A stretch of 64,000 nucleotides of DNA from Solirubrobacterales bacterium (GTDB lineage Bacteria > Actinomycetota > Thermoleophilia > Solirubrobacterales > 70-9). How positions within the stretch are numbered: the stretch's first letter is position 1; every line of letters begins with the position of its first letter. A program made the position numbers and the translations under genes. The notes beneath the pieces are model-generated. The model was given only the letters and a program-made list of their open reading frames with translations, made no database searches and was not told where the DNA came from. This document shows positions 14,277 to 30,198 of this stretch, one piece after another. The DNA lies in assembly GCA_035995325.1 (NCBI GenBank), contig DASYKN010000055.1:13753-77752 (forward strand), read 5' to 3'.

Positions 14277-14329
14277 GGAAAGCCGTCCCGGAGGGGGTGT
14301 TGCAAGGGCACGCTGGTGATCGGCGTCGT

Positions 14330-14808: not shown

Positions 14809-14923
14809 AATGAGGGATAGGACGCGATGGTTCAAGTTTCCCCTGGAGGGCGAAGTTGCCCGTTTGCAGGGTGGGTGAGTGGAGCTAGGCGGATTCGAAC
14901 CGCCGACCTCCTGGGTGCGATCC
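14809..14923. repeat. Repeat copy A: about 70 nt of flank F plus a 44-nt 3' fragment of tRNA-Ala(CGC)
   Basis: aatgagggatagga.gcgatggttcaagtttcccctggag.gcgaagttgcccgtttgcagg..gtgggtgag followed by tggagctaggcggattcgaaccgccgacctcctgggtgcgatcc. The latter is identical to 36052-36095 of the intact tRNA gene. Confidence 0.9.
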
Positions 14924-15019
14924 GCGGCGGCGGCCAGGGCTACCTTCGCAATAAGTGGCCTATTTGCAGGGGCTTACCAGCGGGTTGAAGGTCCGTCGAG
15001 CAGCGTTTGAGCCTGTCGG

Positions 15020-15082
15020 ATATGCACGGATATGCGGCGATGTGATCCGAGTCGGGAACTTTTGGCGAGAAGTTCCCGAAAT
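15020..15082. repeat. Conserved cassette-proximal block with an interrupted palindrome
   Basis: atatgcacggatatgcggcgatgtgatccgagTCGGGAACTTttggcgagAAGTTCCCGAaat is nearly identical to 30199-30261. Confidence 0.85.
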
Positions 15083-15363
15083 GACGCGGCGCGGTTCAAG
15101 GCCCATAAACGGAAAGCGCGACGACTCACTGCCCTAAGCCTGCAACGGCGAATTCCATGCTCCCATTGTGTTCACTAGGGACATTGCACGGTGCAAGTCC
15201 ACCGGCCGTCTAAGACGATCGATCCGACCAGTCTAAGAACCTCAGTATGGTCGAAGACCATGCTGAATCCTTCCCCGCCGATGCAATCTATGGCCGTGGA
15301 TGCTGATGGAACTCGGATGCTCGAGCCGTGACAATTTTTTCACGTCTTAGAGAGGAGAGTTGA

Positions 15364-16509
15364 GTGTCGATCAGAGCTACCTCCACGGACGAACTCGCCC
15401 GTCAGGTCGAGGCTAAGGTGGAACTGCCGTCGGGTGGCGCCATCGTCCCGGTGCCCGAGTTTGCCGCCGCCTCTTCCACCCCATGCGATTCCACCGATCT
15501 GCTGAGCTGGATGGGGTGGATGACGGCGGGGCCGCCCACCTTGGCGGCGGAGGTGCTCCGCAGCGCTGGCTACTGGGCGTGGGTTCGCTATCGATGGGCC
15601 TTGGAGGACGCACATGAAGTCGTCAGGCCGACCGCCGCCGCGCGATCGATAAGACAGCACACCCGCTCAATGTTTAGCGAGGCGGTCGGAGTCGGCACGG
15701 CTGGCTACGTCGGCTGCCTGCGCCTTGCCCCGTCGGGATCTTTGGCTGTGGTCAACTTGGACGACACGATTGACCCGCTGCTGACGAGCAGAGTCATCCG
15801 TCGGCGGTTCGGCTCAGGAAAGAGGCAACCCGACTATTTGATCATCGGGGGGCTTGACAGAGGCCGGGTGGAACTCCTAGCGATCGAGTGCAAAGGCACC
15901 GTCAAGAACGAGAGGACCGCGATCGGTCAGCTTGTTGCAGGAGTTCGGCAGGTCCTGGGGGTCGAATCCGACCTGCCCATGCGGAGGGTGGTCTTCGCCA
16001 CCTCGCTGGATCTCGATGAAAAGGAACCGGCCGTGAGGTGCCACGCAATCGAGGTCAAGGCCGAAGACAGATTCCAAGGCGGGCTCGATATCGAAGTTGC
16101 GCGTGAAGCGGTACGGGACGCCGCCTTGATCCGGGCGCTTCGCTGTGCCGGTCGCTACGACGATGCCGAGCGTACGCGCCAAGGCTATGTAGCGGACTGG
16201 TTCGAGCCCCAAGAGACCTTTCGCATCGCCGACAGGCCGATGGTCGGCCGGGGAGTCGAGCTCCTCTCCGTCGACGCCCACCTTCGGGCCGAGGTGGGTG
16301 TCGACCTTGAGCTCCTGCGAGCGCTGGCGGCTCCTCGATCTGAGCGACAGGCTCTTCTTGAGCCGCTGGAAGGTGAGATTCCAGATCAAGAGAGGGACCG
16401 GCGCATCGATAGTCCGGAGCGAGTCCAGCAGGAAACTCTGATGAGGGACGGCCTCGGCATCCGTTTCGAGCGGCGGGGCCGGGATTCCGGCGAAGAGAGA
16501 TTTCAGTAG
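15364..16509 (+). CDS. Hypothetical protein with a PD-(D/E)xK nuclease-like core
   Basis: GTG start preceded by a GAGGAG RBS. Motif KRQPDYLIIGG...VELLAIECKGT (D ... E-x-K). No other domain recognised. Confidence 0.6.
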   Translation: MSIRATSTDELARQVEAKVELPSGGAIVPVPEFAAASSTPCDSTDLLSWMGWMTAGPPTLAAEVLRSAGYWAWVRYRWALEDAHEVVRPTAAARSIRQHTRSMFSEAVGVGTAGYVGCLRLAPSGSLAVVNLDDTIDPLLTSRVIRRRFGSGKRQPDYLIIGGLDRGRVELLAIECKGTVKNERTAIGQLVAGVRQVLGVESDLPMRRVVFATSLDLDEKEPAVRCHAIEVKAEDRFQGGLDIEVAREAVRDAALIRALRCAGRYDDAERTRQGYVADWFEPQETFRIADRPMVGRGVELLSVDAHLRAEVGVDLELLRALAAPRSERQALLEPLEGEIPDQERDRRIDSPERVQQETLMRDGLGIRFERRGRDSGEERFQ

Positions 16510-16516
16510 GGACCTC

Positions 16517-17035
16517 TTGGCCGGCGCCGCCACCTACTTGGTTGAGTTCGACGGTGCGCTCGTCAGGCGCGGATTCTGGCTCTACGTACTTCAGGCCACC
16601 GTCCCGGACGGAGAGCAGTTTCTCTACGTAGGCAGGACGGGCGACAGTTCGTCCTTCAACGCGCAATCCGCCTACAACCGGCTCGGCAAACACCTTGGCG
16701 CCAACACCACGACGAACCAGATGCGCAGGCACCTGACGAAGAAGGAGTTAGAACCGGAGGCCTGCCTTTACCGCTTCGTTGCCTACGGGCCCGTCCTTGC
16801 AGAGGCAGCAACCAAAGACCAAGGCAGTCACTATCCGCTCCGGGACAAGGTGGCGGCGATGGAGAGGGAACTCGCAGTCCTACTAGAGAGAGCAGGCTAC
16901 TTGGTGCTCAACGAAGTCAGGTCAAAAAAATTGCTGGACGAGAACGCATTTCGACCCGTGGTCGCGGCCATCTCCGAGTACTTCCCCAAACTTGCCGAGT
17001 ACTGTTCTCCGCCGGAACAGGACGTGACTCTGTGA
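16517..17035 (+). CDS. Hypothetical protein with GIY-YIG nuclease-like motifs
   Basis: FWLYVLQ...EQFLYVGRTGD...YNRLGKH...MERELA...LNEV fits the GIY / YIG / R / E / N spacing. It starts 8 nt after the previous gene, so an operon is likely. Confidence 0.5.
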   Translation: MAGAATYLVEFDGALVRRGFWLYVLQATVPDGEQFLYVGRTGDSSSFNAQSAYNRLGKHLGANTTTNQMRRHLTKKELEPEACLYRFVAYGPVLAEAATKDQGSHYPLRDKVAAMERELAVLLERAGYLVLNEVRSKKLLDENAFRPVVAAISEYFPKLAEYCSPPEQDVTL

Positions 17036-17091
17036 TCCCCGAGGTCGATCTTGAGCCTCGCATCTCTACTCCGCTGCCGGTGAGCCCTATG

Positions 17092-17156
17092 GATGGTTCA
17101 AGTTTTCCCCTGGAGAGCGAAGTTGCCCGTTTTGCAGGGGGTGTGGGTGAGTGGAG
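17092..17156. repeat. Repeat copy B: 60 nt of flank F plus only the last 5-6 nt of the tRNA 3' end
   Basis: gatggttcaagttttcccctggagagcgaagttgcccgttttgcagggggtgtgggtgagtggag. After this the sequence diverges. Confidence 0.85.
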
Positions 17157-17280
17157 ATCTCGCCGATCAGCCAGTACCTCTCCGCGACGCGAAGGACGGG
17201 CGGATCCGACCTGCGGAGCAGAGTGCCGCAGTTGGTCGTGGTTCTAATGGTTCAACCCAGGCATCGCGCTCTTCGACCGA

Positions 17281-17811
17281 TCAAGCACCCGTTTCACGGG
17301 ACCTCGGCTCGTTGACGCACACTTGGGGAGAGATAGCTCGCGCCAGCTCGATCAGTCGCTCGACCTGCCCACATGCGCCGTGGACCACCAGCTCCTGGCC
17401 ATTGGCGGCGAGCTGAGATTGCATCTTGGTGATGACGCCAAGCGCACCGGCGTCGAGAAGCTGACAAGTCGAAAGATCCAAGACGATGCAGGGGAGCCCC
17501 GATCCCAACATGTCAGCGAGTAGGTGCTGGAGGGGACCGGTGCCGGCGAGATCCAGCTCGCCGCTCACGCTTATCTGGCGCGCCTCCGCCCAGATCACCG
17601 TTTGCTCAATATGCAGCGCCGCCGGCGCTCGCGCGGGATGATTTTGGGGAGCCAGTCGAGCCGGTGTCTCTTGGTCCTCGGGCTTTCCCTCATCTGGGAG
17701 GGAGACGAGCTCGAAGCGTCCCATTCCTCGCACGAGGCAACGGGGGCAATGTAGGGGAGGGGCCGCGGTACGGATTCGCAGCCGGCAATTGGGACATTGC
17801 GTCCGCGACAT
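17281..17811 (-). CDS. Zinc-ribbon-fused STAS domain protein (anti-sigma-factor antagonist-like)
   Basis: N-terminal CPNCRLRI...LHCPRCLV. C-terminal STAS region (ISVSGELDLAGTGPLQHLL...IVLDLSTCQLLDAGALGVI). Start at the ATG at 17811. Confidence 0.7.
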   Translation of the reverse strand: MSRTQCPNCRLRIRTAAPPLHCPRCLVRGMGRFELVSLPDEGKPEDQETPARLAPQNHPARAPAALHIEQTVIWAEARQISVSGELDLAGTGPLQHLLADMLGSGLPCIVLDLSTCQLLDAGALGVITKMQSQLAANGQELVVHGACGQVERLIELARAISPQVCVNEPRSRETGA

Positions 17812-18055
17812 GGTGAGCACACTGCACCGCCTCCGACCGCCATAGGGCCTCCGGTCAGACGCTGGAGGATCAGCGCCAACGTCGAGTTGTTTCGAATCCA
17901 ACCCCGCCTCTTTTCAGATCGCCAACGTGCGGGCCGCCCTCGCCATCCCGAGTGCACTCCCATTGGTATGACATGCGGACGCTGCTTCAAGCCCAGCGCC
18001 GCCCTCGGCTGACCCAGAGTTGACAACCCAGCGGCACCGGCCTACCAGATGCCAC

Positions 18056-18811
18056 ATGGCCGCTGTGCGCAATGAGCGGATCGGAGACCCCATCGGCCTC
18101 CACGAGCGACGGGTGCTCGCCTGGCTGCGTTCCCGCGGAAGCGACGTCCTCTCCGGCCGCGTCGTTTGGTGCGCCTCCGCCCACGACGGTGGCCACACGG
18201 CTGGTCGGCGCCTCCGGGAGCTGCTGGACGACGACCTCGAGGTTGCTCCCCTTGCCGTGAACGCGCCCGAGCCTCCGGCGGTGTTGGCACGGCGGCTCGA
18301 TGCGATGCTGGCCGGGGTCCCCTCCCCCCGATCGCTCGGGGCCGCAGCGCGGACCGCATACGCCCGCAGCGCCGAGCTCGCCGAGCCCGCCCTCGATAGA
18401 AAGGTGAGGCCCGGGGACGTCGTCGTCCTTCATGACTGCTTTACGGTCTCCTCCGCGGCGGCACTCCGGGAGCGGGGGGCGCACGCGATCTGGCATCTGC
18501 GCAGAGGATCTGGATCGCATGCTCCTTGCGTTGGGGCAGCGATCGACTTTCTCCACCGAGGTGGCGCCGGCGCGGTCGATGCGGTGGTGGCCCACGAGCG
18601 CCAGAGGAACGACGAAGAAGGCCTGATCACCGCCTTCCTGCCAGCCGCCCAGCTTCTCGACATCCGCGAACTGTCGCTGGAGGGGGATGCGGCGCGGGCC
18701 GAGCGGGTGGCGCTCGCGTGGATCAGCCTGCTCGGCGACATCGTCGAGGAAGACCGGGCCGACCACGTCGGCGGCACGATCCAGGCGCGGCCGGTGGTCG
18801 CTGCGCGCTGA
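18056..18811 (+). CDS. Hypothetical protein (weak glycosyltransferase-N-like motif)
   Basis: Coding-like composition. The motif PGDVVVLHD resembles GT4/TreT N-domains. Start at the in-frame ATG at 18056. Confidence 0.4.
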   Translation: MAAVRNERIGDPIGLHERRVLAWLRSRGSDVLSGRVVWCASAHDGGHTAGRRLRELLDDDLEVAPLAVNAPEPPAVLARRLDAMLAGVPSPRSLGAAARTAYARSAELAEPALDRKVRPGDVVVLHDCFTVSSAAALRERGAHAIWHLRRGSGSHAPCVGAAIDFLHRGGAGAVDAVVAHERQRNDEEGLITAFLPAAQLLDIRELSLEGDAARAERVALAWISLLGDIVEEDRADHVGGTIQARPVVAAR

Positions 18812-18815
18812 GGGC

Positions 18816-20471
18816 ATGGGCGCCGCTGAGCCAACCGAGGTCACCGAGACCCCCGACCGCGACGGCGCCTTCCCGCGGCTCAGCGGGGGTCAGATCGAGA
18901 CGTTGACGGCGCACGGGCGTAGCTCGCCGACGAAGCTGGGGGAGCGCCTCTACCGCCAGGGCGACTCTCCTTACGACTTCTTCGTTGTCCTCGAGGGCCT
19001 GGTATCTGCCCACACCGATGCCGAGGGGGACGAGCCCGCGGTCGCCGTCCACGGCCCCCGCCGCTTCCTCGGCGAGCTCAGCCTGTTGACCGGGCAGCCG
19101 GCTTTTTACACGACGGTCGTCCGCGAGGCCGGGGAGGTACTGCAGGTGGCCCCGGAGACGCTGCGCCGGCTGGTCGGCGAAGATCCGGCTCTCGCCGACC
19201 TCGTACTGCGAGCCTTCCTGCTGCGTCGAGAGCTCCTCAGCGGCCTCGGCGCCGGCTTGAAAATCGTCGGCTCACGCCACCTCCCGGACACCCGCCGCCT
19301 ACGCGACTTCGCTGCCCGCAACCGGCTGCCATTCCGCTGGATTGACCCTGACCGCGACCCTCGTGCCGAGGCGCTTCTCGAGCGGCTTGGGATCCTGCCC
19401 GAGGAAACCCCGGTCGTGGTCTGGGGCAGCCGGGTCTGGCGCAACCCGGGCAACGCCGAACTGGCGGCGGCGGCCGGGATGCGCGAGGAGCCGCCGCGCG
19501 ACCGGGTCAGCGACCTCGTCGTCGTCGGCGCCGGGCCGGCTGGCCTGGCGGCGACCGTTTACGGTGCCTCGGAGGGCTTGCTCACCGCGGCCCTCGACGG
19601 AATCGCCGTCGGCGGCCAGGCCAGCACCTCCTCGCGGATCGAGAACTACCTTGGCTTCCCGTCGGGGATCTCCGGCGCCGAGCTGGCCGAACGAGCGACG
19701 ATCCAGGCGCGCAAGTTCGGCGCCCGGATCGTCGTCGGTGCCGCCGCGGTCGGGCTCGAGCTCGGGGACGGAGCCCACACGATCTCGCTTGACGACGGCT
19801 CGACGCTGGAAACGCGGGCGCTGCTGATCGCCACCGGGGCCCGTTATCGCCGCCTCCCGGTCGAGCGGCTCGAGTACTTCGAGGGCGGCGGGGTGCACTA
19901 CGAGGCAACCTTCATGGAGGAGCAGCTCTGCGTCGGCGCTCCGGTCGCCGTGGTCGGCGGCGGCAACTCGGCCGGGCAGGCAACCGCCTTCCTCTCACGC
20001 CGTGCCGGCAAGGTCTATCTGCTGCTTCGCCATGGCGAGCTGACTCGCGACATGTCGCGCTACCTGGCCGACCGGATCGAGCGCCTGCCCAACGTCGAGG
20101 TGCTCCGCAACACCGAGGTCCGCGAGCTACTCGGGGATGACTCCCTGGAAGGCGTCGTCGTCGAGGACCTGAAGAGCGGCGCGCGCCTACGCCTCGACCT
20201 CCGCGAGCTGTTCGTCTTCATCGGCGCCGAGCCGTGCACGGACTGGCTCGAGGGCGTCGTCCCCCTCGACGACCACGGTTACGTGCTGACCGGGTCCGGC
20301 GCGGTAGCTGAGAGCTGCAACGGCGAGGCGCCGCCCGCCCTGCTCGAAACCGGGGTGCCGGGGATCCTCGCCGCCGGGGATGTCCGTGCCGGCTCGATCA
20401 AGCGCGTCGCCTCGGCGGTCGGCGAGGGAGCGATGGCGGTACGCCTCGTCTACGCCCAACTCAACCCCTGA
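18816..20471 (+). CDS. Cyclic-nucleotide-binding domain fused to a thioredoxin-reductase-like FAD/NAD(P) oxidoreductase
   Basis: The cNMP-binding region reads LYRQGDSPYDFFVVLEG...FLGELSLL. This is followed by VVVGAGPAGLAATVYGASEGL, GGGNSAGQA and AAGDVRAGSIKRVASAVGEG. Confidence 0.85.
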   Translation: MGAAEPTEVTETPDRDGAFPRLSGGQIETLTAHGRSSPTKLGERLYRQGDSPYDFFVVLEGLVSAHTDAEGDEPAVAVHGPRRFLGELSLLTGQPAFYTTVVREAGEVLQVAPETLRRLVGEDPALADLVLRAFLLRRELLSGLGAGLKIVGSRHLPDTRRLRDFAARNRLPFRWIDPDRDPRAEALLERLGILPEETPVVVWGSRVWRNPGNAELAAAAGMREEPPRDRVSDLVVVGAGPAGLAATVYGASEGLLTAALDGIAVGGQASTSSRIENYLGFPSGISGAELAERATIQARKFGARIVVGAAAVGLELGDGAHTISLDDGSTLETRALLIATGARYRRLPVERLEYFEGGGVHYEATFMEEQLCVGAPVAVVGGGNSAGQATAFLSRRAGKVYLLLRHGELTRDMSRYLADRIERLPNVEVLRNTEVRELLGDDSLEGVVVEDLKSGARLRLDLRELFVFIGAEPCTDWLEGVVPLDDHGYVLTGSGAVAESCNGEAPPALLETGVPGILAAGDVRAGSIKRVASAVGEGAMAVRLVYAQLNP

Positions 20472-20522
20472 GCTGCGAGCCAAGTGGGAGCCGTTCGGGC
20501 CCCCGCCCGGCTTTCCGCACCG

Positions 20523-20981
20523 CTATGAGCTCTCTTCCTCTTCCTCGTTGCCGCCGACCGTGACCTTGCGGGCTTTCGCCCGCTCCGGCTTCGGGATCTC
20601 GACGAGCATCACACCGCCCTCGAGCCGCGCGTCGACCCGTTCGGGATCGACGTCGCTGGGCAGCGCCACGCGGATCTCGAACTTGCCGGTTCGGCGGGTG
20701 CGGTGGCGTAGCACGCCGACCCGCTCACGCTCCTTGATCTCGCCGGTGACCAGCAGCTCGCCGTCGCGCACTTCGACGTCGACGTCCTTGCGCTTCACCC
20801 CCGGCAGCTCAGCCTCGACGATCCAGGCCTCCTCGGTCTCCTCGATGTCGAAGCGCGGTATGAACGCACTCTGCCCGTTCTGCATCGTGTTGCCGAAGAC
20901 CCCTTGGATCAGCTCGCGGAACGGATCCCATTGCTCGACCGCCAGCGGGGCACCGGCGGAGCGACGTACTGGCAGTGCCAT
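20523..20981 (-). CDS. Hsp20/alpha-crystallin small heat-shock protein
   Basis: PRFDIEETEEAWIVEAELPGVKRKDVDVEV...FEIRVALP...GVMLVEIPK. Confidence 0.9.
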   Translation of the reverse strand: MALPVRRSAGAPLAVEQWDPFRELIQGVFGNTMQNGQSAFIPRFDIEETEEAWIVEAELPGVKRKDVDVEVRDGELLVTGEIKERERVGVLRHRTRRTGKFEIRVALPSDVDPERVDARLEGGVMLVEIPKPERAKARKVTVGGNEEEEESS

Positions 20982-21114
20982 GTCTCTCCTCCTTTACGTA
21001 GGACTGCTTGTCGTCCCGCCAGTAGGTAGGCCTGCGGGCGCCCTTGTCGAGGGTTGATCTGCCGCCAACCAGGACCTCGGGGGCGGCCTGGAGGCCGCGA
21101 GTCCGCGAGCGGCG

Positions 21115-22044
21115 CTAGAGCCAGAGTCGAACGGTGAAGCGGGCATCGCTCGGGAAAGCCTCCAGCTTCTTGACCAGCTGCCGCACGACCCACATCCCCG
21201 GCGCCTGGCCACCCGGCTCGCCGGGGGGATCGAAGCCGATCAGCGGATCGTCAAAGCCCGGGCCCTGGTCGACCACCTCGCAGACCACCAGGTTGCCGAC
21301 CCTGCCGAGCCGGACCTCGACCGGCGGCTCGCCGTGCCCGAAGGCGTTGAGGATCGCCTCGTTGGCCGCCAGCACGGTCTCCAGCGCGCGCGAGCCGCCC
21401 ACCCCTTGGGCGGCGAGCGCCGCGCCGAGCTGTTCGCGCAGCGCCTCGGGGCCCTCGCCCGCGGCAACCGTCCGCAAGTCGGGCAGCGCCCGCGGTAGCG
21501 GGGTCCGCTCCCTGAGGATCTCCGTGAGGTCGGCGCGGGGACTGCCAAGGCGAGCCCCGCCGCTCAGCGCCGGGTGACCGCGCAGGACCGCGTCGAGCAT
21601 CGGCGCCGGAGTGCGCCGGGCGTCATAGCCGCAGAGTGCCCACACCGGCATCGCGGCGAGTGCTCGCTCGAGCGACGCCTCGTAGCCGAGCCAGTCCAGC
21701 CAGCCGTCTTGGGCCGGCCCCGGCTCGACCCCGACGAGCAGTCGCACCGCCGGAAAGCGTCGCAGTCGCTCATACAGCGCCGCGTACTGGGCGGCGAGGG
21801 TCCGTGCGGGCCGGTCGGCGACCGCGGCGAGGTCGAGGAAGCCGACCTCCTCCGAGACCGAGCCGAGGGCGCGGCGGATCAGCGCCTGGCGGTCGCGCGG
21901 AGCCGCGACCAGCGCTCCCTCACCGCCCTCCAGCCCCGCGCGGAGGAAATCGGCCGCTGCTTCAACGTATTCCGCGTCGGATGAGTAGACGAATGCGGTG
22001 TGGCGAAGTTCCGGTTGGCTCACGGCTGGTGATGCTTCTACCAA
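21115..22044 (-). CDS. MEDS-domain sensor fused to an RsbW-like HATPase anti-sigma domain
   Basis: N-terminal HTAFVYSSDAEYVEAAADFLRAGL (MEDS-like). C-terminal NEAILNAFGHG...VVDQGPGFDDP (HATPase_c). It starts 10 nt downstream of the sigma factor gene. Confidence 0.7.
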   Translation of the reverse strand: MVEASPAVSQPELRHTAFVYSSDAEYVEAAADFLRAGLEGGEGALVAAPRDRQALIRRALGSVSEEVGFLDLAAVADRPARTLAAQYAALYERLRRFPAVRLLVGVEPGPAQDGWLDWLGYEASLERALAAMPVWALCGYDARRTPAPMLDAVLRGHPALSGGARLGSPRADLTEILRERTPLPRALPDLRTVAAGEGPEALREQLGAALAAQGVGGSRALETVLAANEAILNAFGHGEPPVEVRLGRVGNLVVCEVVDQGPGFDDPLIGFDPPGEPGGQAPGMWVVRQLVKKLEAFPSDARFTVRLWL

Positions 22045-22053
22045 AGCCGGCCG

Positions 22054-22824
22054 CTACCTCCGTGAAGTGCTCGCTGGCCAAGCGGCTGCCTGGCGTAGTT
22101 TGCCGAGGGCGCGGTCCTCCAGCTGTCTGACCCGCTCCACGCTGAGGTCGAACTCCCGGCCGATCTCGCGCAGCGTCCGCTGCCGGCAGTCAATCCCGTA
22201 ATGAGCGAAGACGATGCGGCGCTCGCGCTCCTCGAGGCCGGCGGCGAGATCCTGGATATGCTCCCCGCCGGCCAGATCGACGATCCGTTCGTAGTCCTCC
22301 TCGGTGGCCGGATCGGCGAGTCGCTCGACGAAGGTCGTCGCCATCTCCTCGTCGCCGGGAAGTCGCGCCTGCAGGCTGCTCGGGGCGCGCTCGACCGAGA
22401 TCAGATGCTGGATCTGGTCCAGCGGCATTTTCGTACTCTCGGCGAGCTCGGAGTCGGAAGGCTCACGCCGGTTCGCCTGGGCGAAGGCGGATCGCGCCCG
22501 CTTCATCTGGACGAGACTGCGGGTGGCTCGGTCGGAGAGGACGACGGGGCTGGTCAGCTCGGCGACGAGCTGCTGCATCGCCTGCCGAACCCACCACGAC
22601 GCGTAAGCCCAGAACGGCGTCTCGTAACGCTGGTCATAGCGCCGCGCGGCGCGCAGCAGGCCGACCACCCCCTCCTGCTGGAGCTCCCGGCGCTCGAGGC
22701 TGGCAAAGCTCCGGTAGAGGTTCGCGACTCCGTTGATCGCCGGCATAAAGGCCGTCACCAATTCCTCGGTGGCGGTTCGGTCACCGGCCTCGGTCAGGGC
22801 GAGAAGGTGGCGCTCTCGGGCCAT
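22054..22824 (-). CDS. RNA polymerase sigma factor, group 3 (SigB/SigF-like)
   Basis: Region 2: DLQQEGVVGLLRAARRYD...FWAYASWWVRQAM. Region 4: RRIVFAHYG...RTLREIGREFDLSVERVRQLEDRAL. Start at the ATG at 22824. Confidence 0.85.
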   Translation of the reverse strand: MARERHLLALTEAGDRTATEELVTAFMPAINGVANLYRSFASLERRELQQEGVVGLLRAARRYDQRYETPFWAYASWWVRQAMQQLVAELTSPVVLSDRATRSLVQMKRARSAFAQANRREPSDSELAESTKMPLDQIQHLISVERAPSSLQARLPGDEEMATTFVERLADPATEEDYERIVDLAGGEHIQDLAAGLEERERRIVFAHYGIDCRQRTLREIGREFDLSVERVRQLEDRALGKLRQAAAWPASTSRR

Positions 22825-22929
22825 AGGGAGAGGCGAGCTCGCTGGATGCGCCTGGTCGCGCAATGCGCCTTCTTCCGGTGTGTTGCAGTCGGCTGACCGA
22901 ACAGCTCCGGATCACCTTAGACCATAGAT

Positions 22930-23031
22930 CGCCACCCCGATACCCCTTAAAACGCCACCCCGGTACCCCCTTTAAATCCCCTTCAAGAGGCTGCCTAAAC
23001 CTCTTGACGCCAGCCTTTGCCGACCTACCAG
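22930..23031 (+). promoter_or_regulatory. dnaK upstream control region: tandem 22-24-bp direct repeats, an inverted repeat overlapping a TTGACG -35-like box, and a TACCAG box
   Basis: Direct repeats cgccaccccgataccccttaaa (22930-22951) and cgccaccccggtaccccctttaaa (22953-22976). Inverted repeat TCAAGAGG-N9-CCTCTTGA at 22983-23007. TTGACG at 23004-23009 and TACCAG at 23026-23031. Confidence 0.45.
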
Positions 23032-23085
23032 GAGGTGTGAAAGCCCGCGAACGGCCCGGACGCCCGGGCTCGAGAGGAGGCCACG

Positions 23086-24966
23086 ATGGCAAAGGCTGTC
23101 GGAATTGACCTCGGCACGACCAACTCGGTGGTCGCCGCAACGTTGGAGGGCGGACAGGCCGAGGTGATCCCAAACTCCGAGGGCTCACGGACGACGCCAT
23201 CGGTGGTCGCCTTCACTGAGGACAGCGAGCGGTTGGTCGGTCAGATCGCCAAACGCCAGGCGATCCTCAATGCCGAGGCGACCATCTACTCCGCCAAGCG
23301 CTTCATCGGCCGCAAGTGGGGCGAGGTCGACGAGGAGGCGAAAATCGTCTCCTACAAGGTGGTCAAAGGCGAGAACGACGCGGTTCGCTTTGAAGTCCGC
23401 GGCAGGCAACACGCGCCGGAGGAGATCTCCGCACAGGTGCTGCGCAAGCTCGCCGACGACGCGGCCAAGTTCCTCGGCGAAAAAGTCACCGAGGCGGTGA
23501 TCACCGTGCCCGCCTACTTCAACGACTCACAGCGGCAGGCGACCAAAGACGCAGGCAAAATTGCCGGCCTCGAGGTGCTGCGGATCATCAACGAGCCGAC
23601 CGCGGCCGCCCTCGCCTACGGCCTCGACAAGAAAGGCTCCGAGACGGTCCTCGTCTTCGATCTCGGCGGCGGCACCTTCGATGTCTCGCTGCTGGAAGTC
23701 GGCGACGGCGTGATCGAGGTTCGCTCGACCAGCGGTGACGGTCATCTTGGCGGCGACGACTTCGACAAACGGGTGGTCGACTGGCTGGCCGACGAATTCA
23801 AGAAGGACCAGGGAATCGACCTGGCGGCGGATCCCCAGGCCCTGCAGCGCCTCTTCGAGGCCGCCGAGCGGGCGAAGATCGAGCTCTCCTCGACCACCCA
23901 GACGCAGATCAACCTGCCGTACATCACCGCCGACGCGGCGGGCCCGAAACACCTCAACATCACGCTCGCCCGGTCGAAGTTCGAGCAGCTGGTCGAGGAT
24001 CTGATCGCCCGCACCCGTGGGCCGGTCGAACAGGCGCTGAAAGACGCCGGCCTCAGCGCCGACGACATCGACGAGGTGATCCTGGTCGGCGGCTCGACCC
24101 GGATCCCGAAAGTCCAGGACCTGGTGCGCAAACTGACCGGCGGCAAGGACCCGAACCAGACGGTCAATCCGGACGAGGTAGTGGCGATCGGGGCCGCCCT
24201 GCAGGCCGGGGTGCTGAAAGGCGAGGTCGAGGACGTCGTCCTGCTCGACGTCACCCCGCTCTCGCTCGGGCTGGAGACGATGGGCGGCGTGATGACGAAA
24301 GTCATCGAGCGCAACACGACGATCCCAGCCCGGCGGACCGAGGTCTTCTCCACCGCCGAGGACAACCAGACCGCGGTCGACGTCGTCGTCCTCCAGGGCG
24401 AGCGCGAGATGGCCCGCGACAATCGGCAGCTGGCCAAATTCCGGCTCGAAGGAATCCGGCCGGCGCCCCGCGGCGAGCCGCAGGTCGAGGTCACCTTCGA
24501 CATCGACGCGAACGGCATTCTCAACGTCTCTGCGCGCGACAAAGACACCGGTGCCGAACAGCAGGTGACGATCACCGAAACGACCAACCTCGACAGCTCC
24601 GACATCGAGCGGATGATCAAGGAGGCCGAAGAACACGCGGCCGAAGACCGCCAGCAGCGCGAAGAAGTCGACGCCCGCAACGAGCTCGACGCCTTCGCCC
24701 ATCGGGTCGAGCGGCAGCTCGAGGAGCTTGGCGATCGGGTGCCGGTCAACCAGAAGGAACAGGCCGAGGCGCTGGTCCGCGACGCGCGGGGAGCGATCGA
24801 GGAGCAAGCCGGTCTCGACCGTGCGCGGCCGCTGATCTCCGACCTGCAGCAGATGGTTCAGGCGCTGCAGAGTGCCGGTGTGACTGCCGGCCCCCGGGAC
24901 GGCGGCGAGGGTGAGCCCGCGGCCGAGGAGGAGGAAGTCGTCGATGCCGAGTTCACCCGCGAGTGA
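23086..24966 (+). CDS. dnaK: Molecular chaperone DnaK (Hsp70)
   Basis: [22 protein letters not shown] and [14 protein letters not shown] signatures. 626 aa. Confidence 0.97.
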
Positions 24967-25486
24967 AGAGGAGCAACAGGCGGGCCAGGCCGCGGGAGCG
25001 GCGCAGGTGACCAACCAGGAATCAGGCAGCACGCAGCCTCCGCCTCGCGATGACGAGCGTTACCTGCGCGCTCTCGCCGACCTCGAGAACTATCGCAAGC
25101 GCTCGGCGCAGGAAGTGGAGCGGCGGGTCAGCGAACAGGCCGAGCGGCTGCTGCTCGACTGGATCGAGGCGGTGGACAGCGTCGACCGAGCACTGGGGAT
25201 GCAGCCCTCCGACGGGCTGCGCAGAGTCCTCGAGCAGATGGAGGGGATCCTTGCCCGGCAGGGCGTCGCGCGGGTGGGCGCCGTGGGCGATCGCTTCGAT
25301 CCCGAGCTGCACGAGGCGATCTCCGTTCAGGAGAGCGACGAGGTCCCCGACCGCACCGTGCTCGACGTCGCCCGCTCGGGCTATCGCCACAGCGAGCGGG
25401 TGCTGCGCCCGGCCCAGGTGGTGGTTTCGCGGCACGGCGGCGGCTCAGAGCAAAAGCGGAAGCCCAGCGAAGAAAGGAAGGACTGA
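24944..25486 (+). CDS. grpE: Nucleotide exchange factor GrpE
   Basis: [12 protein letters not shown]...[12 protein letters not shown]. The ATG at 24944 overlaps the dnaK 3' end. Confidence 0.9.
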
Positions 25487-26395
25487 TTGGCAGTCGGCTT
25501 TCGCGATTACTACGAGTTACTGGGCGTCCCCCGCGGCGCCGGCGACGAGGAGATCCGCAGCGCCTACCGCAAGCTCGCGCGCGAATTTCATCCGGACGTC
25601 AACAAGGATCCCGACGCCGAGGACCGCTTCAAAGAGGTCTCGGAGGCCTACGAGGTCCTGCGCGACCCCGAGAAACGGGAGAAATACGAACGCCTCGGGA
25701 CGAACTGGAAAGCCGGTGAGGACGTCAGCGGCGCCTCCGGGTTCGGTGGGGGCTTCGGGGGCGGCGACGGCAAGGGATTCGGCGACGCCGCCGGCTTCAG
25801 CGACTTCTTCGAGAGCTTCTTCGGCGGCCGGCGAGGGCCCCCCCGGGGCTTCGATGGCTTCTCGATGCGGGGCGGTGACCAAGAGGCGACGCTCGAGGTC
25901 ACGCTCGAGGAAGCGGCCCGTGGTGGCAAACAGAGCATCTCGCTCCCCGACGGTCGCGATTTCGAGGTGCAGATCCCGCCCGGCGTCCGCGACGGTCAGA
26001 AAATCCGTCTCGCCGGGCAACGCGGGGAAGGGGCGAGCGGCGGTCCGGCGGGGGACCTCTACCTGCGGGTGCGGATCAAACCCCACCCGCGCTTCCGCCG
26101 CGAAGACGACGACCTCGTGGTCGAGGTCCCGGTCGCGCCCTGGGAGGCGGCGCTCGGGGCCACGGTTCCCGTCCCCACCCTCCACGGCAACGCTAAAGTC
26201 AAAGTTCCGGCCGGCTCCTCCAGCGGCCGCCGTTTGCGACTGAGAGGCGAGGGGATGTCGGGCCCCGGCCGGCGCAAGGGCGATCTCTACGCAAGCGTCA
26301 GGATCGTGGTTCCTAAGGTCCTCGAGAAACGCGAGCGCGAGCTGTTCGAGGAGCTGGCCGCGGTCTCGCGGTTCGACCCGAGGCAGGGGCGCTGA
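25487..26395 (+). CDS. cbpA: J-domain co-chaperone without a zinc-finger domain (CbpA-like DnaJ)
   Basis: DYYELLGVPRGAGDEEIRSAYRKLAREFHPDVNKD, a G/F-rich linker and C-terminal substrate-binding domains. No CxxCxGxG repeats. TTG start. Confidence 0.85.
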   Translation: MAVGFRDYYELLGVPRGAGDEEIRSAYRKLAREFHPDVNKDPDAEDRFKEVSEAYEVLRDPEKREKYERLGTNWKAGEDVSGASGFGGGFGGGDGKGFGDAAGFSDFFESFFGGRRGPPRGFDGFSMRGGDQEATLEVTLEEAARGGKQSISLPDGRDFEVQIPPGVRDGQKIRLAGQRGEGASGGPAGDLYLRVRIKPHPRFRREDDDLVVEVPVAPWEAALGATVPVPTLHGNAKVKVPAGSSSGRRLRLRGEGMSGPGRRKGDLYASVRIVVPKVLEKRERELFEELAAVSRFDPRQGR

Positions 26396-26640
26396 TGTCG
26401 CCTGGCACGGCCCTCATCCTCGCCGACGCCCGGGTGCTCGCCCGCCGCTCTGGCCTGCACCCCGACTTGGTGCGGCGGCTGGTCGCGCTCGACGCCGTCG
26501 ACCCCCTCGACTGGGACGCCGCGGCGCGCCTCGCGCGCCTGGTGCGGCTGCGCCACGACCTCGGCCTCAACGTCGCCGGCGCGGCGCTCGCCTGTGACCT
26601 GCTGATGCGGATCGAGGAGCTGGAAGCGCGGCGGCCCTAG
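26395..26640 (+). CDS. cbpM: MerR_2-type chaperone modulator (CbpM/HspR-like)
   Basis: 81 aa. SGLHPDLVRRLVALDAVDP ... RLRHDLGLNVAGAALACDLLMRIEELE. ATGA-type overlap with the cbpA stop. Confidence 0.7.
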   Translation: MSPGTALILADARVLARRSGLHPDLVRRLVALDAVDPLDWDAAARLARLVRLRHDLGLNVAGAALACDLLMRIEELEARRP

Positions 26641-26656
26641 GCGCCCTGCGATAGCC

Positions 26657-27712
26657 ATGGCTGCGGTAAAGCTCGGGCTGATCGTCTCGCCGGCAATCGA
26701 CCAGCTGGCGGTGGACGAGCTGGCGGCCGACCTCGGCGCCGCTCTGGCCGAGCGCTACCCCGAGGTCGAGTGGGAGCTGGAGGTCCTCACCGACTTGTTG
26801 GCCGAGCCGCCGGCACACTTGACCGAACTCGTCTCCGCGGCCCGTCGCCTTCTGCTCGACGCCGACTGGGACCTGGCGGTGGCGGTCACCGAGCTGCCCC
26901 TGCGACTCGCTCACCGGACGTTGCTCAGCCATGCCAGCCGCACCCACGGCGTCGCGTTGGTCTCGCTACCGGCGCTCGGCGTCCTGAGGCGCCGCCGACG
27001 CCTCCACGACGTCGTCGCCGACGCGGTCGGGACGCTGGTTGGCGATCCGGTGCGCGGCCGCGCCTCCCAGTCCGCCGCCGCTCGGCTCGGAGTCGAGCGC
27101 CGCCTCGCCGAGCTGGCTGGCGAGGTCGACGACGGGGGCGCCGCCTACGTCGCCCGGGTGATCGGCGGCAACTTGCGGCTGTTGGCCGGGATGGTTGGCG
27201 CCAATCACCCCTGGCGGCTGGTCGGGCGGCTTTGGCGGGCGATGCTGGCGGCGGTTGCGGCTGTCGCCTTCGGCTTGATCCAGATCGAAGTCTGGAAAAT
27301 CGCCGCAACCCTCGGGCCGCTGCGACTGGCGCTCGCCGCCCTCGCCTCGATCGCCGCCGCCTCAGTGACGTTGATCGCCGGCCACCGCCTCTGGGAGCGC
27401 GCACCCGACCCTCGCGTGCGCGAGCAGGTGACGCTGTTCAACCTGGCGACCACCGCAACGGTCGTGTTCGGAATCATCGCGCTCTACTTCTTCGTGTTCG
27501 TCGCCAGCCTCGTTGCCGCCCTGCTGCTGATCGAACCGTCGCTTCTCTCGCAAGCGCTTGGGCGAGACACGGACGTCTGGGATTACGTGCGCCTCGCCTG
27601 GCTCTCGACCGCCCTGGGGACGATTGGCGGCGCCCTGGGGGCGACCTTGGAGACCGACGAGGCGGTCAGCGAGGCCGCCTACACGTACCGACCGACGAGC
27701 GCCCGCGAGTGA
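26657..27712 (+). CDS. Hypothetical integral membrane protein
   Basis: A soluble N-terminal half is followed by about four hydrophobic helices (WRAMLAAVAAVAFGLIQIEVW, LALAALASIAAASVTLIAG, VVFGIIALYFFVFVASLVAALLLI, WLSTALGTIGGALGA). Confidence 0.6.
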   Translation: MAAVKLGLIVSPAIDQLAVDELAADLGAALAERYPEVEWELEVLTDLLAEPPAHLTELVSAARRLLLDADWDLAVAVTELPLRLAHRTLLSHASRTHGVALVSLPALGVLRRRRRLHDVVADAVGTLVGDPVRGRASQSAAARLGVERRLAELAGEVDDGGAAYVARVIGGNLRLLAGMVGANHPWRLVGRLWRAMLAAVAAVAFGLIQIEVWKIAATLGPLRLALAALASIAAASVTLIAGHRLWERAPDPRVREQVTLFNLATTATVVFGIIALYFFVFVASLVAALLLIEPSLLSQALGRDTDVWDYVRLAWLSTALGTIGGALGATLETDEAVSEAAYTYRPTSARE

Positions 27713-27734
27713 TAGCGCGCCGATTCGAGCTGAG

Positions 27735-29162
27735 CTAGCCCAGGGCGTCGCGGATCGGCGCGTCGGCCGGCGTGATCGCGATCAGCTTGCGATTGGCGAA
27801 CTCGAGGATCCCGAGGTGGGAGAGCTCGCGCCCGAAGCCGGAGCGCTTGGCTCCGCCGAAGGGAAGGGTCGGCTCCGAGGCGGTCGGGTGGTTCACGAAG
27901 ACCATCCCGGCCTCGAGCCGGTCGGCCACCGCCTGGGTGCGCTCGCCGTCGCTGCCGAACACCGCCCCGCCGAGCCCGTACTGCGAGCCGTTGGCGAGGG
28001 CGATCGCCTGCTCGTCCGACTCGACCCGGTACACGGCAGCCACCGGACCGAACAGCTCCTCGTGGTAGGCGCGCATCTCAGGGGTGACGTCGACCAGGAT
28101 CGTCGGCTCGACGAAGGCGCCCGGCCGGTCGATGCGGCGGCCGCCGGTCACCACGCCGGCGCCCTTCTCGATCGCCTCGTCGACCTGCTCGATCGCCAGC
28201 TCGGCCGCCCGCTCGGAGGAGAGCGGCGCCAGCGTCGTCCTCTCGTCGAACGGGTCGCCGGGTTCGAGCTCGGCCATCCGTTCGGCAAGGCCGTCGAGGA
28301 AGTCTTGGAAGACGTCGGCCATCACGATCATCCGCTTGGCGCTGGTGCAGACCTGGCCCATGTTGTGCATCCGCCCGACGAACGCCGCCTCCACGGTGCG
28401 CTCGAGGTTGGCGCCGTCGAGGACGATGAAGGGGTCGCTACCACCGAGCTCGAGCACCGCCTTCTTGACGGCGCGCCCGGCCTCCTCGCCCAAGGCGGAG
28501 CCGGCCCGGTCGCTGCCGGTCAGCGAGCAGCCCTGCACGAGCGGGCTCTCGACCATCCGCGCGATGTCCTCCACCTCGACGAAGACGTTGGTGAAGACGC
28601 CCTCGGGAGCACCGGCATCTGCGAACAGCGCCTCGATCGCCAGGGCGGATTGGGGCACGCTCCGCGCGTGCTTGAGCAGGATCGTGTTGCCGAGCACCAG
28701 ATTCGGGGCGCTGATCCGGATCGCCTGGTAGGCGGGGAAGTTCCAAGGCTGCACGGTCAGCAGGACCCCGAGCGGCTCGGTGCGGATGAGCGCCGAGCCC
28801 TCGTCGTCCATCTCCAGCGGCTGATCGGCGATCTGCGCCGGGCCCTTCTGCGCGTAGTACTCGAGGATTCGGATCGTCAGGTCCAACTCCGCCCGGCTAT
28901 GGCGGATCAGCTTCCCCATCTCGAGCGTAATCGTCCGCGCCAGCTCCTCGTAGTGCTTCCGCATCAGCAGCGCCGCGCGCCCGACGATCCCGGCCCGCTC
29001 CGCCGCCCCCCGTTCTCGCCACGGCCCCGACGCGCGCTGGGCCCGCTCCATGACCCGATCGATCTCCTCGCCGCGCAGCGACGGGAACTCCCGCACGACC
29101 TCGTTGGTGTACGGGTTGACGGTCGCGAAGCTGCTGCGGGCGCCTGCCTTGGTATGAGCCAT
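27735..29162 (-). CDS. NAD(P)-dependent aldehyde dehydrogenase (succinate-semialdehyde dehydrogenase-like)
   Basis: [22 protein letters not shown] (catalytic Cys) and EELFGPV motifs. Start at the ATG at 29162. Confidence 0.9.
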
Positions 29163-29213
29163 CGTCAGGGGCGTTGGTAGGCCACTCGCGCCGCCGGTCA
29201 ACCGCTGCGCCTC

Positions 29214-29777: not shown

Positions 29778-29925
29778 TGGAGTTGCTCCTTGTCGGTTAG
29801 GTACTCGTACCGCCGTTCCGCAACGTCCCTCGCCGACCGGGGGCGACGCAAACGATCGCTGCGTAGGGCGCCCATGTTGCTTTTCCGGTAGGCCGCCGCG
29901 GCGCTTCTGTCAACGGGCGGAATCG

Positions 29926-30099: not shown

Positions 30100-30198
30100 T
30101 CAAGGTGGCAGGCTAGGATTTCTACTTCAATAAAGCGCTTCTTTACAGGGAATTTCTAGTCCTATGCCGGGAGCATCGAGCGACGATTCTCGCGCCAA

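What the first reader, a model, noticed from the sequence alone, without database searches (positions are those of the whole stretch)
14809..17156. A third cassette of the same family lies 13 kb away from the tRNA, bounded by direct copies of flank F
The left boundary, 14809-14923, is about 70 nt of flank F plus 44 nt of the tRNA-Ala(CGC) 3' end. It is followed by a left-end block (15020-15082) nearly identical to the left end of cassette 2. The right boundary, 17092-17156, repeats 60 nt of F plus only the terminal tggag of the tRNA, after which the sequence is unrelated.

The layout is therefore F-42nt-leftblock-cargo-F, the same as in the stack at 30-36 kb. Here, however, there is no intact tRNA on the right. 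The element either inserted at a secondary site or was separated from the stack by a rearrangement between repeat copies. The cargo is again a two-gene, lower-GC module with no recombinase.
Basis: seen in the sequence. Interest (0 to 1): 0.7.

Follow-up and report, generated by a model that had tools for sequence, protein, structure and literature searches.

The report
Stranded piece of tRNA cassette array
This 2.3-kb segment is a real gene cassette with no recombinase, of the same family as those stacked beside a tRNA-Ala gene 13 kb away, but it is a broken-off, now immobile piece of such an array, stranded by a genome rearrangement rather than inserted separately; that is an ordinary fate for decaying genomic islands, and its two-gene cargo is uncharacterised.

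Summary
Window 14809-17156 is bounded by copies of "F". Its left end also carries a 42-46-nt copy of the tRNA-Ala(CGC) 3' half and the conserved left block. Three independent assemblies reproduce both junctions.

F is not host flank. It is the conserved right arm of a family of small cassettes without an integrase, found in Solirubrobacterales. These cassettes mostly carry defence-type cargo and sit at tRNA-Ala(CGC). The tRNA-half repeats end in the anticodon loop, and both arms carry GATATGC repeats laid out as in lambda attP. This points to a tyrosine integrase acting in trans, but none was found in about 12 cassettes from 9 loci.

Cassette 3 is not a secondary-site insertion. Its left end is a complete inter-cassette junction, and its right end has only 5 nt of tRNA. 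In two relatives (87-90% nt identity) the host genes on either side of the two F junctions are direct neighbours. The intervening 12.7 kb is therefore circularly permuted in the window, with one breakpoint at an F copy and the other 138 nt beyond one. A rearrangement associated with F stranded the cassette.

The cargo proteins (381 and 172 aa) match no known family or fold.

Closest known kind: decayed cis-mobilizable elements (CIME) in tandem arrays. Interest is moderate.

The parts
14809..14879 (.). F': the core-proximal ~70 nt of the right arm (F) of a former preceding element. It is cut off on its left at the position of the F palindrome.
   Evidence: 89% identity to 35975-36050. There is no similarity further left. 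See also alignment A2.
14880..14924 (-). Displaced copy of the tRNA-Ala(CGC) 3' half. 42 nt are identical to the gene; the copies diverge inside the anticodon loop or stem.
   Evidence: (D6). Identity ends at ...GGGTGCGAT in all four window copies and in L003, L005, L006, L008, L018 and L027.
14925..15018 (.). Variable spacer between the tRNA half and the left block. Only a short AAA..ATTTnCAGGG motif is shared between elements.
   Evidence: The resemblance to the tRNA 5' half is not significant.
15019..15100 (+). Left block, read as a P'-type arm. It holds three tandem 10-bp GATATGCnnn repeats (15019-15048), a palindrome with a 12-bp stem (15052-15079) and GGTTCAAG (15093-15100).
   Evidence: 88% identity to 30199-30279. 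The repeats are listed. Exact GGATATGCGG occurs only in element arms. The palindrome varies symmetrically between elements.
15364..16509 (+). Cargo gene 1, 381 aa, function unknown. D157, E175 and K177 are invariant (a motif like PD-(D/E)xK).
   Evidence: 26 homologues, those with a source name all Solirubrobacterales. Invariant columns. AF2 model pLDDT 84, with no PDB fold or sequence hit and no Pfam, PADLOC or NCBIfam family.
16517..17035 (+). Cargo gene 2, 172 aa, function unknown.
   Evidence: 414 representative clusters at E<=0.001. AF2 model pLDDT 94.5, with no PDB hit. Only sub-threshold GIY-YIG and DUF123 hints.
17092..17156 (.). Right boundary: the core-proximal 60 nt of F plus TGGAG, the last 5 nt of the tRNA. 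The tRNA core is missing, so there is no usable attR.
   Evidence: 94% identity to 35994-36056. The break after 17156 is sharp. The junction is present in L024, L025 and L026.
17157..17294 (.). 138 nt of unassigned sequence between F-TGGAG and the point where homology to the relatives' STAS gene begins.
17295..27716 (.). Host block B: STAS, 251-aa protein, cNMP/thioredoxin-reductase-like protein, HSP20, sigma factor, dnaK-grpE-dnaJ-hspR, 351-aa protein.
   Evidence: 86-92% nt identity to L022 and L023, where it lies directly to the right of block A.
27732..29914 (.). Host block A: aldehyde dehydrogenase, YceI and the YceI promoter region, which ends ...TGTCAAC.
   Evidence: 89-90% identity to L022 and L023. 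Homology stops at 29914, and F starts at 29915.
29915..30279 (.). Leftmost junction of the main stack: F (29915-30057), tRNA half (30058-30102), spacer, then left block (30199-30279).
36051..36124 (-). Intact tRNA-Ala(CGC), the attachment site of the family. F lies immediately 3' of it at 35910-36050.
   Evidence: The same tRNA-F arrangement occurs in L006, L007, L010 and L012.

Best explanation
Window 14809-17156 is a fragment of a tandem array of small integrative cassettes that have no integrase and target tRNA-Ala(CGC).

How the family works:
- A complete cassette reads: tRNA 3' half, ~95-nt spacer, left block, cargo, F, tRNA 3' half.
- The left block and F are the two arms of an attP-like site.
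- Both arms carry GATATGC-type repeats, three tandem in the left block and one inverted in F.
- Both also carry a GGTTCAAG motif and an optional palindrome matched between the two ends.
- The repeated tRNA halves end in the anticodon loop.

Shown here: the family's architecture, its spread among Solirubrobacterales with different cargo (mostly defence-type), and the absence of any integrase in the cassettes.

Inferred: insertion by a lambda-type tyrosine integrase supplied in trans. Successive insertions at the tRNA then push older cassettes outward.

What cassette 3 is: the piece [end of a preceding element's F, tRNA half, spacer, left block, cargo, proximal F, first 5 nt of the next tRNA half]. 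It is a slice cut out of such an array.

How it was stranded: it now lies 13 kb from the rest because 12.7 kb of host DNA sits between two F copies. That DNA is circularly permuted relative to relatives.
- The simplest inferred route is recombination in or next to F that put a circular [A-B] intermediate into the array.
- Alternatively, the circle replaced the interior of a former element.

Current state: without a right-hand tRNA core and with both F copies truncated, the cassette can no longer be excised site-specifically. The cargo is an uncharacterised two-gene module, possibly nucleases or a defence system.
For: Family membership:
- The same F, core, spacer and left block junction occurs in L003, L005, L008, L018 and L027, and as tRNA-F in L006, L007, L010 and L012.

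Site-specific origin:
- Every displaced tRNA half ends at the same place in the anticodon loop. This is a recognised integrase sublocation (10.1101/2020.11.02.365908).
- Exact GGATATGCGG occurs only in the arms, on the + strand in the left blocks and the - strand in F.

F belongs to the element:
- F is 93-98.6% identical across genomes, against 66-74% for the adjacent host gene.
- F is absent beside the outermost tRNA half in L006 and L018.

No integrase:
-, plus JGI Pfam tables and a motif scan.

Cargo of sister cassettes:
- DGQHR protein plus D12 methylase; Shosta; type I RM; C5 methylase plus HEF_HK and Response_reg_2; ApeA-HEPN; QueC-like protein plus IrrE; a STAND-like kinase.

Rearrangement:
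- In L022 and L023 the order is [27732-29775][17295-27716]. The window has the reverse order.
- Homology stops at 29914, with F starting at 29915, and restarts at 17295, 138 nt after F-TGGAG.
- Block B identities are window-L022 90.3%, L022-L023 89.0% and window-L023 87.3%, which favours the window as the derived state.
- The cassette is absent next to the GGDEF orthologue in L027. An F-core-left block junction lies 5 kb from that gene there.

Junctions are real:
-.
Against: - No relative with cassette 3 directly joined to the stack was found, so former contiguity is inferred.
- The F duplication on both sides of the 12.7-kb block needs either an F copy on the incoming DNA or a former element whose interior was replaced. 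Neither was observed.
- The polarity of the rearrangement rests on three taxa with nearly equal distances.
- The B|A junction (27716/27732) is covered only by the window's own contig.
- 14277-14808 and 17157-17294 remain unassigned.
- No helper integrase has been seen anywhere, so trans-mobilisation is untested.
- In L018 the same two-gene module (83% nt identity) sits without arms, 3 kb outside the array. The cargo can therefore move or persist by other means.
Confidence: 0.6

Rival explanations
1. Independent site-specific integration of a complete cassette into a secondary (pseudo-attB) site between the GGDEF gene and the STAS gene. The same integrase that serves the tRNA-Ala site would have done it.
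For: The segment has family arms at both ends, lies far from the intact tRNA, and is absent at the syntenic positions in L022, L023 and L027.
Against: - The parts are in the wrong order for an integration product. The left end carries F upstream of a full tRNA half, which is an inter-element junction, and the right end has only 5 nt of the core.
- Neither flank resembles a tRNA or att sequence.
- The GGDEF-STAS adjacency is not ancestral, because in relatives the STAS side abuts YceI.
Confidence: 0.08
2. No site-specific recombination operates today. F and the left block would be conserved landing pads of a defence hot spot, and cassettes would be swapped or duplicated by RecA-dependent homologous recombination through the 150-190-nt F-plus-tRNA homology. 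Cassette 3 would have been copied or moved by such recombination.
For: - No integrase is present in about 12 cassettes from 9 loci (and others).
- F is long and 92-99% conserved, so it is a good recombination substrate.
- The 12.7-kb block is flanked by direct F copies, as a Campbell-type homologous event would leave it.
- The cargo module occurs without arms in L018.
Against: - The tRNA-half repeats all end at the same anticodon-loop position.
- The spacer beyond that position differs in every copy.
- The arms carry ordered short repeats in a lambda-attP-like layout that homologous recombination would not need.
- This rival is partly compatible with the best explanation for the rearrangement step itself.
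Confidence: 0.2
3. The 12.7-kb block 17157-29914 is the cargo of one very large cassette of the same family, a captured and possibly duplicated host segment that includes the dnaK operon. On this reading 14.8-36.1 kb is one continuous 21-kb array, and cassette 3 was never separated from it.
For: - The block ends on its right in a bona fide F followed by a tRNA half (29915-30102), and it starts right after F-TGGAG.
- Relatives show that its content is host DNA in circularly permuted order, as expected for a captured circle.
Against: - No left block or tRNA core is present at its left end.
- GC and GC3 are host-like.
- Whether a second copy of these genes exists in the genome is unknown.
- In substance this differs from the best explanation only in naming.
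Confidence: 0.1
4. Assembly artefact: repeats caused chimeric joins in the metagenome contig.
For: The source is a metagenome contig, and a short-read Logan assembly breaks exactly in the repeats (L001 equals 15032-17121).
Against: - Contigs from a second JGI sample and from Logan reproduce both cassette junctions and the A|F junction at 100% identity.
- The B|A junction contains no repeat.
Confidence: 0.02

Closest known systems
CIMEs (cis-mobilizable elements) and tandem accretion at att sites, e.g. elements related to ICESt1/ICESt3 in Streptococcus thermophilus (definition quoted in PMC5704250)
   Same: - Elements without integration or transfer genes that keep att sites.
- They lie in tandem with other elements at the 3' end of a target gene.
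- Arrays are built by successive site-specific insertions.
- Mobilisation is expected from a related element's integrase.
   Different: - No parent ICE or IME, and no integrase-bearing relative, was found in any of 9 loci.
- The cassettes are uniformly minimal (2-7 kb), with arms directly abutting the cargo.
- Cassette 3 itself has lost its attR core, so it does not even meet the CIME definition.
- Mobilisation is untested.
Tycheposon-containing genomic islands of Prochlorococcus (10.1101/2020.12.28.424599)
   Same: - Islands next to tRNA genes in which elements are separated only by partial tRNA copies.
- New arrivals push older elements further in.
- Degenerate remnants and cargo for defence or adaptation are common.
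   Different: - Tycheposons are defined by their own tyrosine recombinase and replication module. Neither is present here.
- The host phylum differs.
Lambda-type attP of heterobivalent tyrosine integrases that target the anticodon-loop sublocation of tRNA genes (established knowledge; sublocations summarised in 10.1101/2020.11.02.365908)
   Same: [quoted passage not shown]
- One arm holds three tandem short repeats and the other an inverted copy, like P'1-3 and P1/P2.
- Additional symmetric sites could bind accessory proteins.
   Different: - Binding of any protein is not shown.
- The integrase is missing from the element.
- Similarity to the chromosomal tRNA flank continues for some 25 nt beyond the tRNA.
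Integron gene cassettes
   Same: Small units without a recombinase, each with one or a few genes, stacked in one orientation at a fixed site and presumably served by a recombinase encoded outside the cassette.
   Different: - No attC-type site and no adjacent IntI or attI platform.
- The recombination site is a tRNA half with long arms.
- Cargo genes lie in either orientation, so the cassettes are probably not promoterless.

Membership tests
tRNA-integrating genomic island / integrative element (tyrosine integrase type) | Direct repeats made of the 3' part of the target tRNA at both ends of the element | tested here: not met
   The left end has the full 42-46-nt tRNA half (14880-14924). The right end has only TGGAG (17152-17156). 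The feature is met for the stack cassettes at 30058-36093 and for the L006 element.
tRNA-integrating genomic island / integrative element (tyrosine integrase type) | An integrase gene inside the element | tested here: not met
   No Phage_integrase, resolvase or transposase domain in the two cargo proteins or in any array ORF. No box II or Tyr motif in the window.
tRNA-integrating genomic island / integrative element (tyrosine integrase type) | An intact target tRNA gene abutting one end | tested here: not met
   The nearest tRNA-Ala(CGC) is at 36051-36124, 18.9 kb away.
CIME (cis-mobilizable element) | [quoted passage not shown] | tested here: met
CIME (cis-mobilizable element) | Retains functional attL and attR | tested here: not met
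   The attL-type junction is complete (core, spacer, left block). On the attR side F is cut to 60 nt and the core to 5 nt. Sister cassettes in the stack and in L006 keep both sites.
CIME (cis-mobilizable element) | Derived by decay from an ICE or IME, and mobilised in cis after accretion with a functional element | not testable with these tools
   No integrase-bearing relative was found in genome, metagenome or viral collections using F, left block or tRNA-half patterns.
Integron cassette | An attC recombination site at the cassette end, and an IntI/attI platform at the head of the array | tested here: not met
   The boundaries are tRNA halves with long arms. No integrase is encoded beside the tRNA.
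Tycheposon | Own tyrosine recombinase plus a replication or packaging module | tested here: not met
   Only the island architecture with partial tRNAs is shared.
Known anti-phage defence system (PADLOC models) | Cargo proteins match a defence-system model | tested here: not met
   No PADLOC hit for the 381-aa or 172-aa proteins. The neighbouring cassettes do match, to Shosta, type II MTase and DpdB-like models.
PD-(D/E)xK nuclease (381 aa) and GIY-YIG nuclease (172 aa) | Significant sequence or fold match to the superfamily | tested here: inconclusive
   - D157, E175 and K177 are invariant.
- The 172-aa family has conserved Y23, Y37, G39 and R55.
- The best PDB fold hits have E>=0.14.
- GIY-YIG and DUF123 appear only at E~0.05 in 1 of 33 members each.

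The most novel reading that the evidence does not exclude
The family may be a dedicated, integron-like cassette system.
- Its units would be minimal cassettes (2-7 kb) with no integrase, each carrying a full lambda-type attP (F arm, tRNA half, left block).
- Some pairs of ends also carry palindromes matched between the two ends.
- An integrase encoded elsewhere, in the genome or on a helper element, would capture, stack and shuffle them at tRNA-Ala(CGC).
- This would give uncultured Solirubrobacterales an exchangeable defence-gene array.
- The same arms could occasionally capture or relocate large host segments. Here that segment would be 12.7 kb and include the dnaK operon.
Probability: 0.25. 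Interest if true: 0.7.

Novelty: new member of a known kind. Interest (0 to 1): 0.4.

Why it matters
- Arms can outlive mobility. The repeated arms of small tRNA-linked cassettes persist after the cassettes stop moving, and they then act as breakpoints that reshuffle host DNA. Here they moved a heat-shock gene block.
- A testable trans-mobilisation case. About 12 sister cassettes in 9 loci, mostly with defence genes, keep highly conserved arms but never an integrase. That is a concrete case for trans-mobilised defence cassettes in a poorly studied actinobacterial order.
- New candidate proteins. The cargo pair (381 and 172 aa) folds confidently but matches nothing known. Given the company it keeps, it is a candidate new nuclease or defence module.

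Tried and rejected
- Small peptide in F. An RBS-ATG in F gives a 21-aa ORF that ends in the tRNA. Copies differ by frame-shifting indels in the T/C runs, so it is not coding.
- F or the left block as a known RNA. Rfam finds nothing there at gathering thresholds.
- Spacer as a decayed tRNA 5' half plus promoter. Not significant (z <= 2.3).
- Gradual decay of F to the left of 14809 or 17092, or 17157-17294 as a decayed left block. Alignment scores equal those of shuffles.
- 17157-17196 as a remnant of the PAS/EAL gene that follows block B in L022. There is a 40-nt, 80% DNA match, but no protein-level match.
- A gene interrupted by the cassette. ORF 14316-14808 would continue in frame into 17157-17416. 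However, its codon-position GC is atypical, it has no Pfam or NCBIfam match, and the far part is antisense to the STAS gene. This was not pursued.
- An empty site in identical-protein contigs. Only the same strain was recovered.
- Integrase-bearing relatives in viral contigs. Four scans found nothing.
- Cargo function. Profile searches against PDB, Foldseek against PDB, Pfam, PADLOC and NCBIfam gave nothing significant.
- Obligate pairing of the two cargo genes. L019, L020 and L021 carry the 381-aa homologue alone.
Full report

A sensitive self-comparison of the window gives the following matches:
- 14814-15128 aligns with 29988-30309 (325 nt, 76%, E 1e-57).
- 14809-14937 aligns with 35975-36109 (89%).
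- 17092-17156 aligns with 35994-36056 (94%) and with 30000-30062 (92%).

The intact tRNA-Ala(CGC) lies on the minus strand at 36051/2-36124. A 42-nt stretch of its 3' half is repeated without a single change at 14880-14921, 30058-30099 and 33978-34019. The left block 15020-15100 is 88% identical to 30199-30279.

On the right, similarity stops after TGGAG at 17156. All three limits are sharp. Sequence just outside 14809, 17092 and 17156 aligns to distal F, or to core-spacer-left block, no better than shuffled sequence.

GC is 0.58-0.64 across 15.0-17.0 kb, against 0.70-0.74 in the host DNA at 18-29 kb.

The junctions are not an assembly artefact:
- A 54-kb contig from a second metagenome matches window 7281-19722 at 100%.
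- A Logan contig matches 17092-18750.
- A third contig matches 28442-38318.

WHAT THE REPEATS ARE

Pattern scans with a 23-nt piece of F found the same architecture in uncultured Solirubrobacterales. There were two MAGs (L003, L005) and five distinct metagenome contigs (L006=L011, L007, L008, L010, L012). Homologue look-ups added L018 and L027.

In L006, L007, L010 and L012, F lies directly 3' of the intact tRNA-Ala(CGC). In L003, L005, L008, L018 and L027 it lies beside displaced tRNA halves.

Aligning 15 junctions gives the unit: F (up to ~190 nt), tRNA 3' half, variable ~95-nt spacer, left block, cargo.

Every displaced tRNA half ends at the same place...GGGTGCGAT, inside the anticodon loop. 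Beyond that point the copies differ. This is the signature of site-specific recombination at the anticodon-loop sublocation used by many tRNA-targeting integrases.

F IS THE ELEMENT'S ARM, NOT HOST FLANK
- It is 93-98.6% identical between genomes whose host gene on the other side of the tRNA is only 66-74% identical.
- It is missing next to the outermost displaced tRNA half in L006 and L018. Only a ~12-nt GTGCAGGG-type motif remains there.

THE ARMS LOOK LIKE AN ATTP
- The left block consists of three tandem 10-bp GATATGCnnn repeats, then a palindrome with a 12-bp stem, then GGTTCAAG.
- F carries one inverted GGATATGCGG, a 26-nt perfect palindrome with the same half-site, and GGTTCAAG.
- Exact GGATATGCGG occurs in the window only in these arms. 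It is on the + strand in the left blocks and on the - strand in F.
- Three tandem arm repeats on one side and an inverted one on the other is the layout of lambda attP (P'1-3 against P1/P2). That comparison rests on established knowledge and was not tested here.

The palindrome changes symmetrically between elements:
- Five of 12 stem pairs show changes on both sides, and 97.9% of cells remain paired.
- The two ends of one element share the same half-site: GGGAAC in the window, CAGCCAC in the L018 element.
- The single L006 element lacks the palindrome in both arms, and the F copy of L005 lacks it too.

It is therefore an optional feature. Whether it is a protein-binding site or a hairpin cannot be decided from these data.

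NO RECOMBINASE ANYWHERE

Across the window's three cassettes and the arrays of eight other loci, no ORF of 170 aa or more shows an integrase, resolvase or transposase domain. The JGI Pfam tables agree.

The single exception is a truncated large serine recombinase in L008. It belongs to a separate 2.5-kb insert.

A crude motif scan finds no tyrosine-recombinase box II in the 64-kb window. One caveat applies: it lists only the 25 best families, so a weak hit could be hidden.

The cargo of sister cassettes is mostly defence-type:
- DGQHR/DndB-like protein plus D12 methylase, and Shosta, in the window.
- Type I RM in L012.
- C5 methylase plus HATPase/HEF_HK and Response_reg_2 in L006.
- ApeA-HEPN in L008 and L018.
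- A QueC-like protein plus HTH-IrrE, and a kinase/ORC-CDC6-like protein, in L005.

The family therefore behaves like CIMEs, defined as elements that keep att sites but lack integration genes and accumulate in tandem. The islands resemble tycheposon islands, where partial tRNAs separate successive arrivals. Trans-mobilisation by an integrase encoded elsewhere is an inference.

WHAT CASSETTE 3 IS

A cassette inserted on its own would start at the crossover inside the tRNA half and end with F plus the tRNA half. Cassette 3 is different:
- It starts with 70 nt of F from a preceding element, followed by a full tRNA half, spacer and left block. That is a complete inter-cassette junction, like 29915-30279.
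- It ends with 60 nt of F plus only 5 nt of tRNA.

It is thus a slice of a tandem array, not a unit. Having lost the right-hand core and the distal parts of both F copies, it can no longer be excised site-specifically.

HOW IT CAME TO LIE 13 KB FROM THE TRNA

Anchoring on the cNMP/thioredoxin-reductase-like gene retrieved two relatives at 87-90% nt identity.

In both, the aldehyde dehydrogenase-YceI block (window 27732-29775, "A") lies directly left of the block running from STAS to dnaK, hspR and the 351-aa gene (window 17295-27716, "B"). The window has B then A.
- Homology on the A side runs through the YceI promoter to 29914, and F begins at 29915.
- Homology on the B side begins at 17295, 138 nt after F-TGGAG, and the last few codons of the STAS gene differ.

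The two F-bearing junctions of the window are therefore the two sides of one ancestral junction. The 12.7 kb between them is circularly permuted, closed by a tight new B|A joint with roughly 5-15 nt unaccounted for.

Pairwise identities are window-L022 90.3%, L022-L023 89.0% and window-L023 87.3%. They make A-B the more likely ancestral order.

The GGDEF orthologue of a third relative (L027, 92-93% nt) lacks the cassette downstream. It does have an F-core-left block junction 5 kb away, so the GGDEF neighbourhood and such an array are linked in that lineage too.

The simplest reading is that cassette 3 was the distal part of the tRNA-Ala array. Recombination in or next to F then placed a circular [A-B] intermediate between it and the rest, or replaced the interior of a former element. 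Mechanism and direction remain inferred, and the duplication of F on both sides is not explained in detail.

THE CARGO

The 381-aa protein has 26 homologues, and those that carry a source name are all Solirubrobacterales.
- Its model is confident (pLDDT 84).
- Nothing in PDB matches it by sequence or fold.
- D157, E175 and K177 are invariant, which is compatible with a PD-(D/E)xK site.

The 172-aa protein belongs to a wider family of 414 representative clusters.
- It folds at pLDDT 94.5.
- It has no PDB match and only sub-threshold GIY-YIG and DUF123 hints.

Neither protein matches Pfam, PADLOC or NCBIfam.

The pair recurs at 83% nt identity in L018. There it has no arms and lies 3 kb outside an array. 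In L019, L020 and L021 the larger gene stands alone. A defence or nuclease role is a guess from context.

VERDICT

The finding is real and mostly read correctly. It is a new member of a known kind: decayed cassettes without an integrase in a tandem tRNA array. The secondary-site reading is rejected in favour of a rearrangement associated with F.

The more interesting open point concerns the family rather than this copy. Highly conserved attP-like arms occur without any integrase in every cassette seen.

Noticed in passing
L008:6464-9130 (and window 17152-17157): In L008 a 2.5-kb insert sits between F and the tRNA half. It carries an ApeA-like HEPN gene and the C-terminal half of a large serine recombinase, whose reading frame runs into the tRNA half. 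The break is at about the same TGGAG position as the window's right boundary. A second, serine-recombinase element may target the F/tRNA-end junction.
   Followed up: partly
window 29961-29986, 35953-35978; 15052-15079, 30231-30258; L005:4300-4340; L006: The 26-nt perfect palindrome CATTTCGGGAACTAGTTCCCGAAATG in F, and its split version in the left block, are present or absent as clean indels. Both arms of the L006 element lack it, and so does the F copy of L005. Its outer stem differs between elements while staying symmetric.
   Followed up: partly
window 21052-22084: The MEDS/HATPase_c_2 gene between HSP20 and the sigma factor is absent from L022, where 10 nt stand in its place. L023 has an NAD-binding epimerase gene there instead. 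This is another variable slot inside the heat-shock block.
   Followed up: no
window 33900-34110: The middle junction of the stack has the tRNA half (33978-34019). It is preceded by only a very degenerate F and followed by no recognisable left block. The RM and Shosta cassettes may therefore behave as one composite element.
   Followed up: no
L027:598-803: In this relative the left block abuts the tRNA half directly, and the ~95-nt spacer is missing. The spacer is therefore dispensable for maintaining the junction.
   Followed up: no
window 14389-14460 and L027:2825-2895: A 73-nt, 77% match links the unassigned 532 nt left of the cassette to an intergenic spot beside an arsenate-reductase-like gene. 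In L027 that spot lies between the GGDEF gene and an array junction.
   Followed up: no
window 36047-36124 and 39053-39130: tRNA-Ala(CGC) and tRNA-Ala(TGC) form a 78-nt, 83% inverted repeat 2.9 kb apart, bracketing an ABC transporter and a 332-aa protein that has no family match. This pairing is conserved in L007 and L010.
   Followed up: no
window 39327-40488 and 5440-6112: Two genes carry long in-frame tandem repeats. One has periods of about 165-186 nt (7 copies, a PD40/Tricorn-like protein by JGI Pfam). The other has periods of about 114-141 nt (5 copies).
   Followed up: no
window 55229-57695: A low-GC patch (0.63-0.64) lies between tRNA-Lys(TTT) and tRNA-Val(CAC). It holds a 487-aa ORF with no Pfam match and could be another small island.
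   Followed up: partly
window 52868-52974: A TPP riboswitch, just above the Rfam gathering score (55.9 against 54.3 bits).
   Followed up: no
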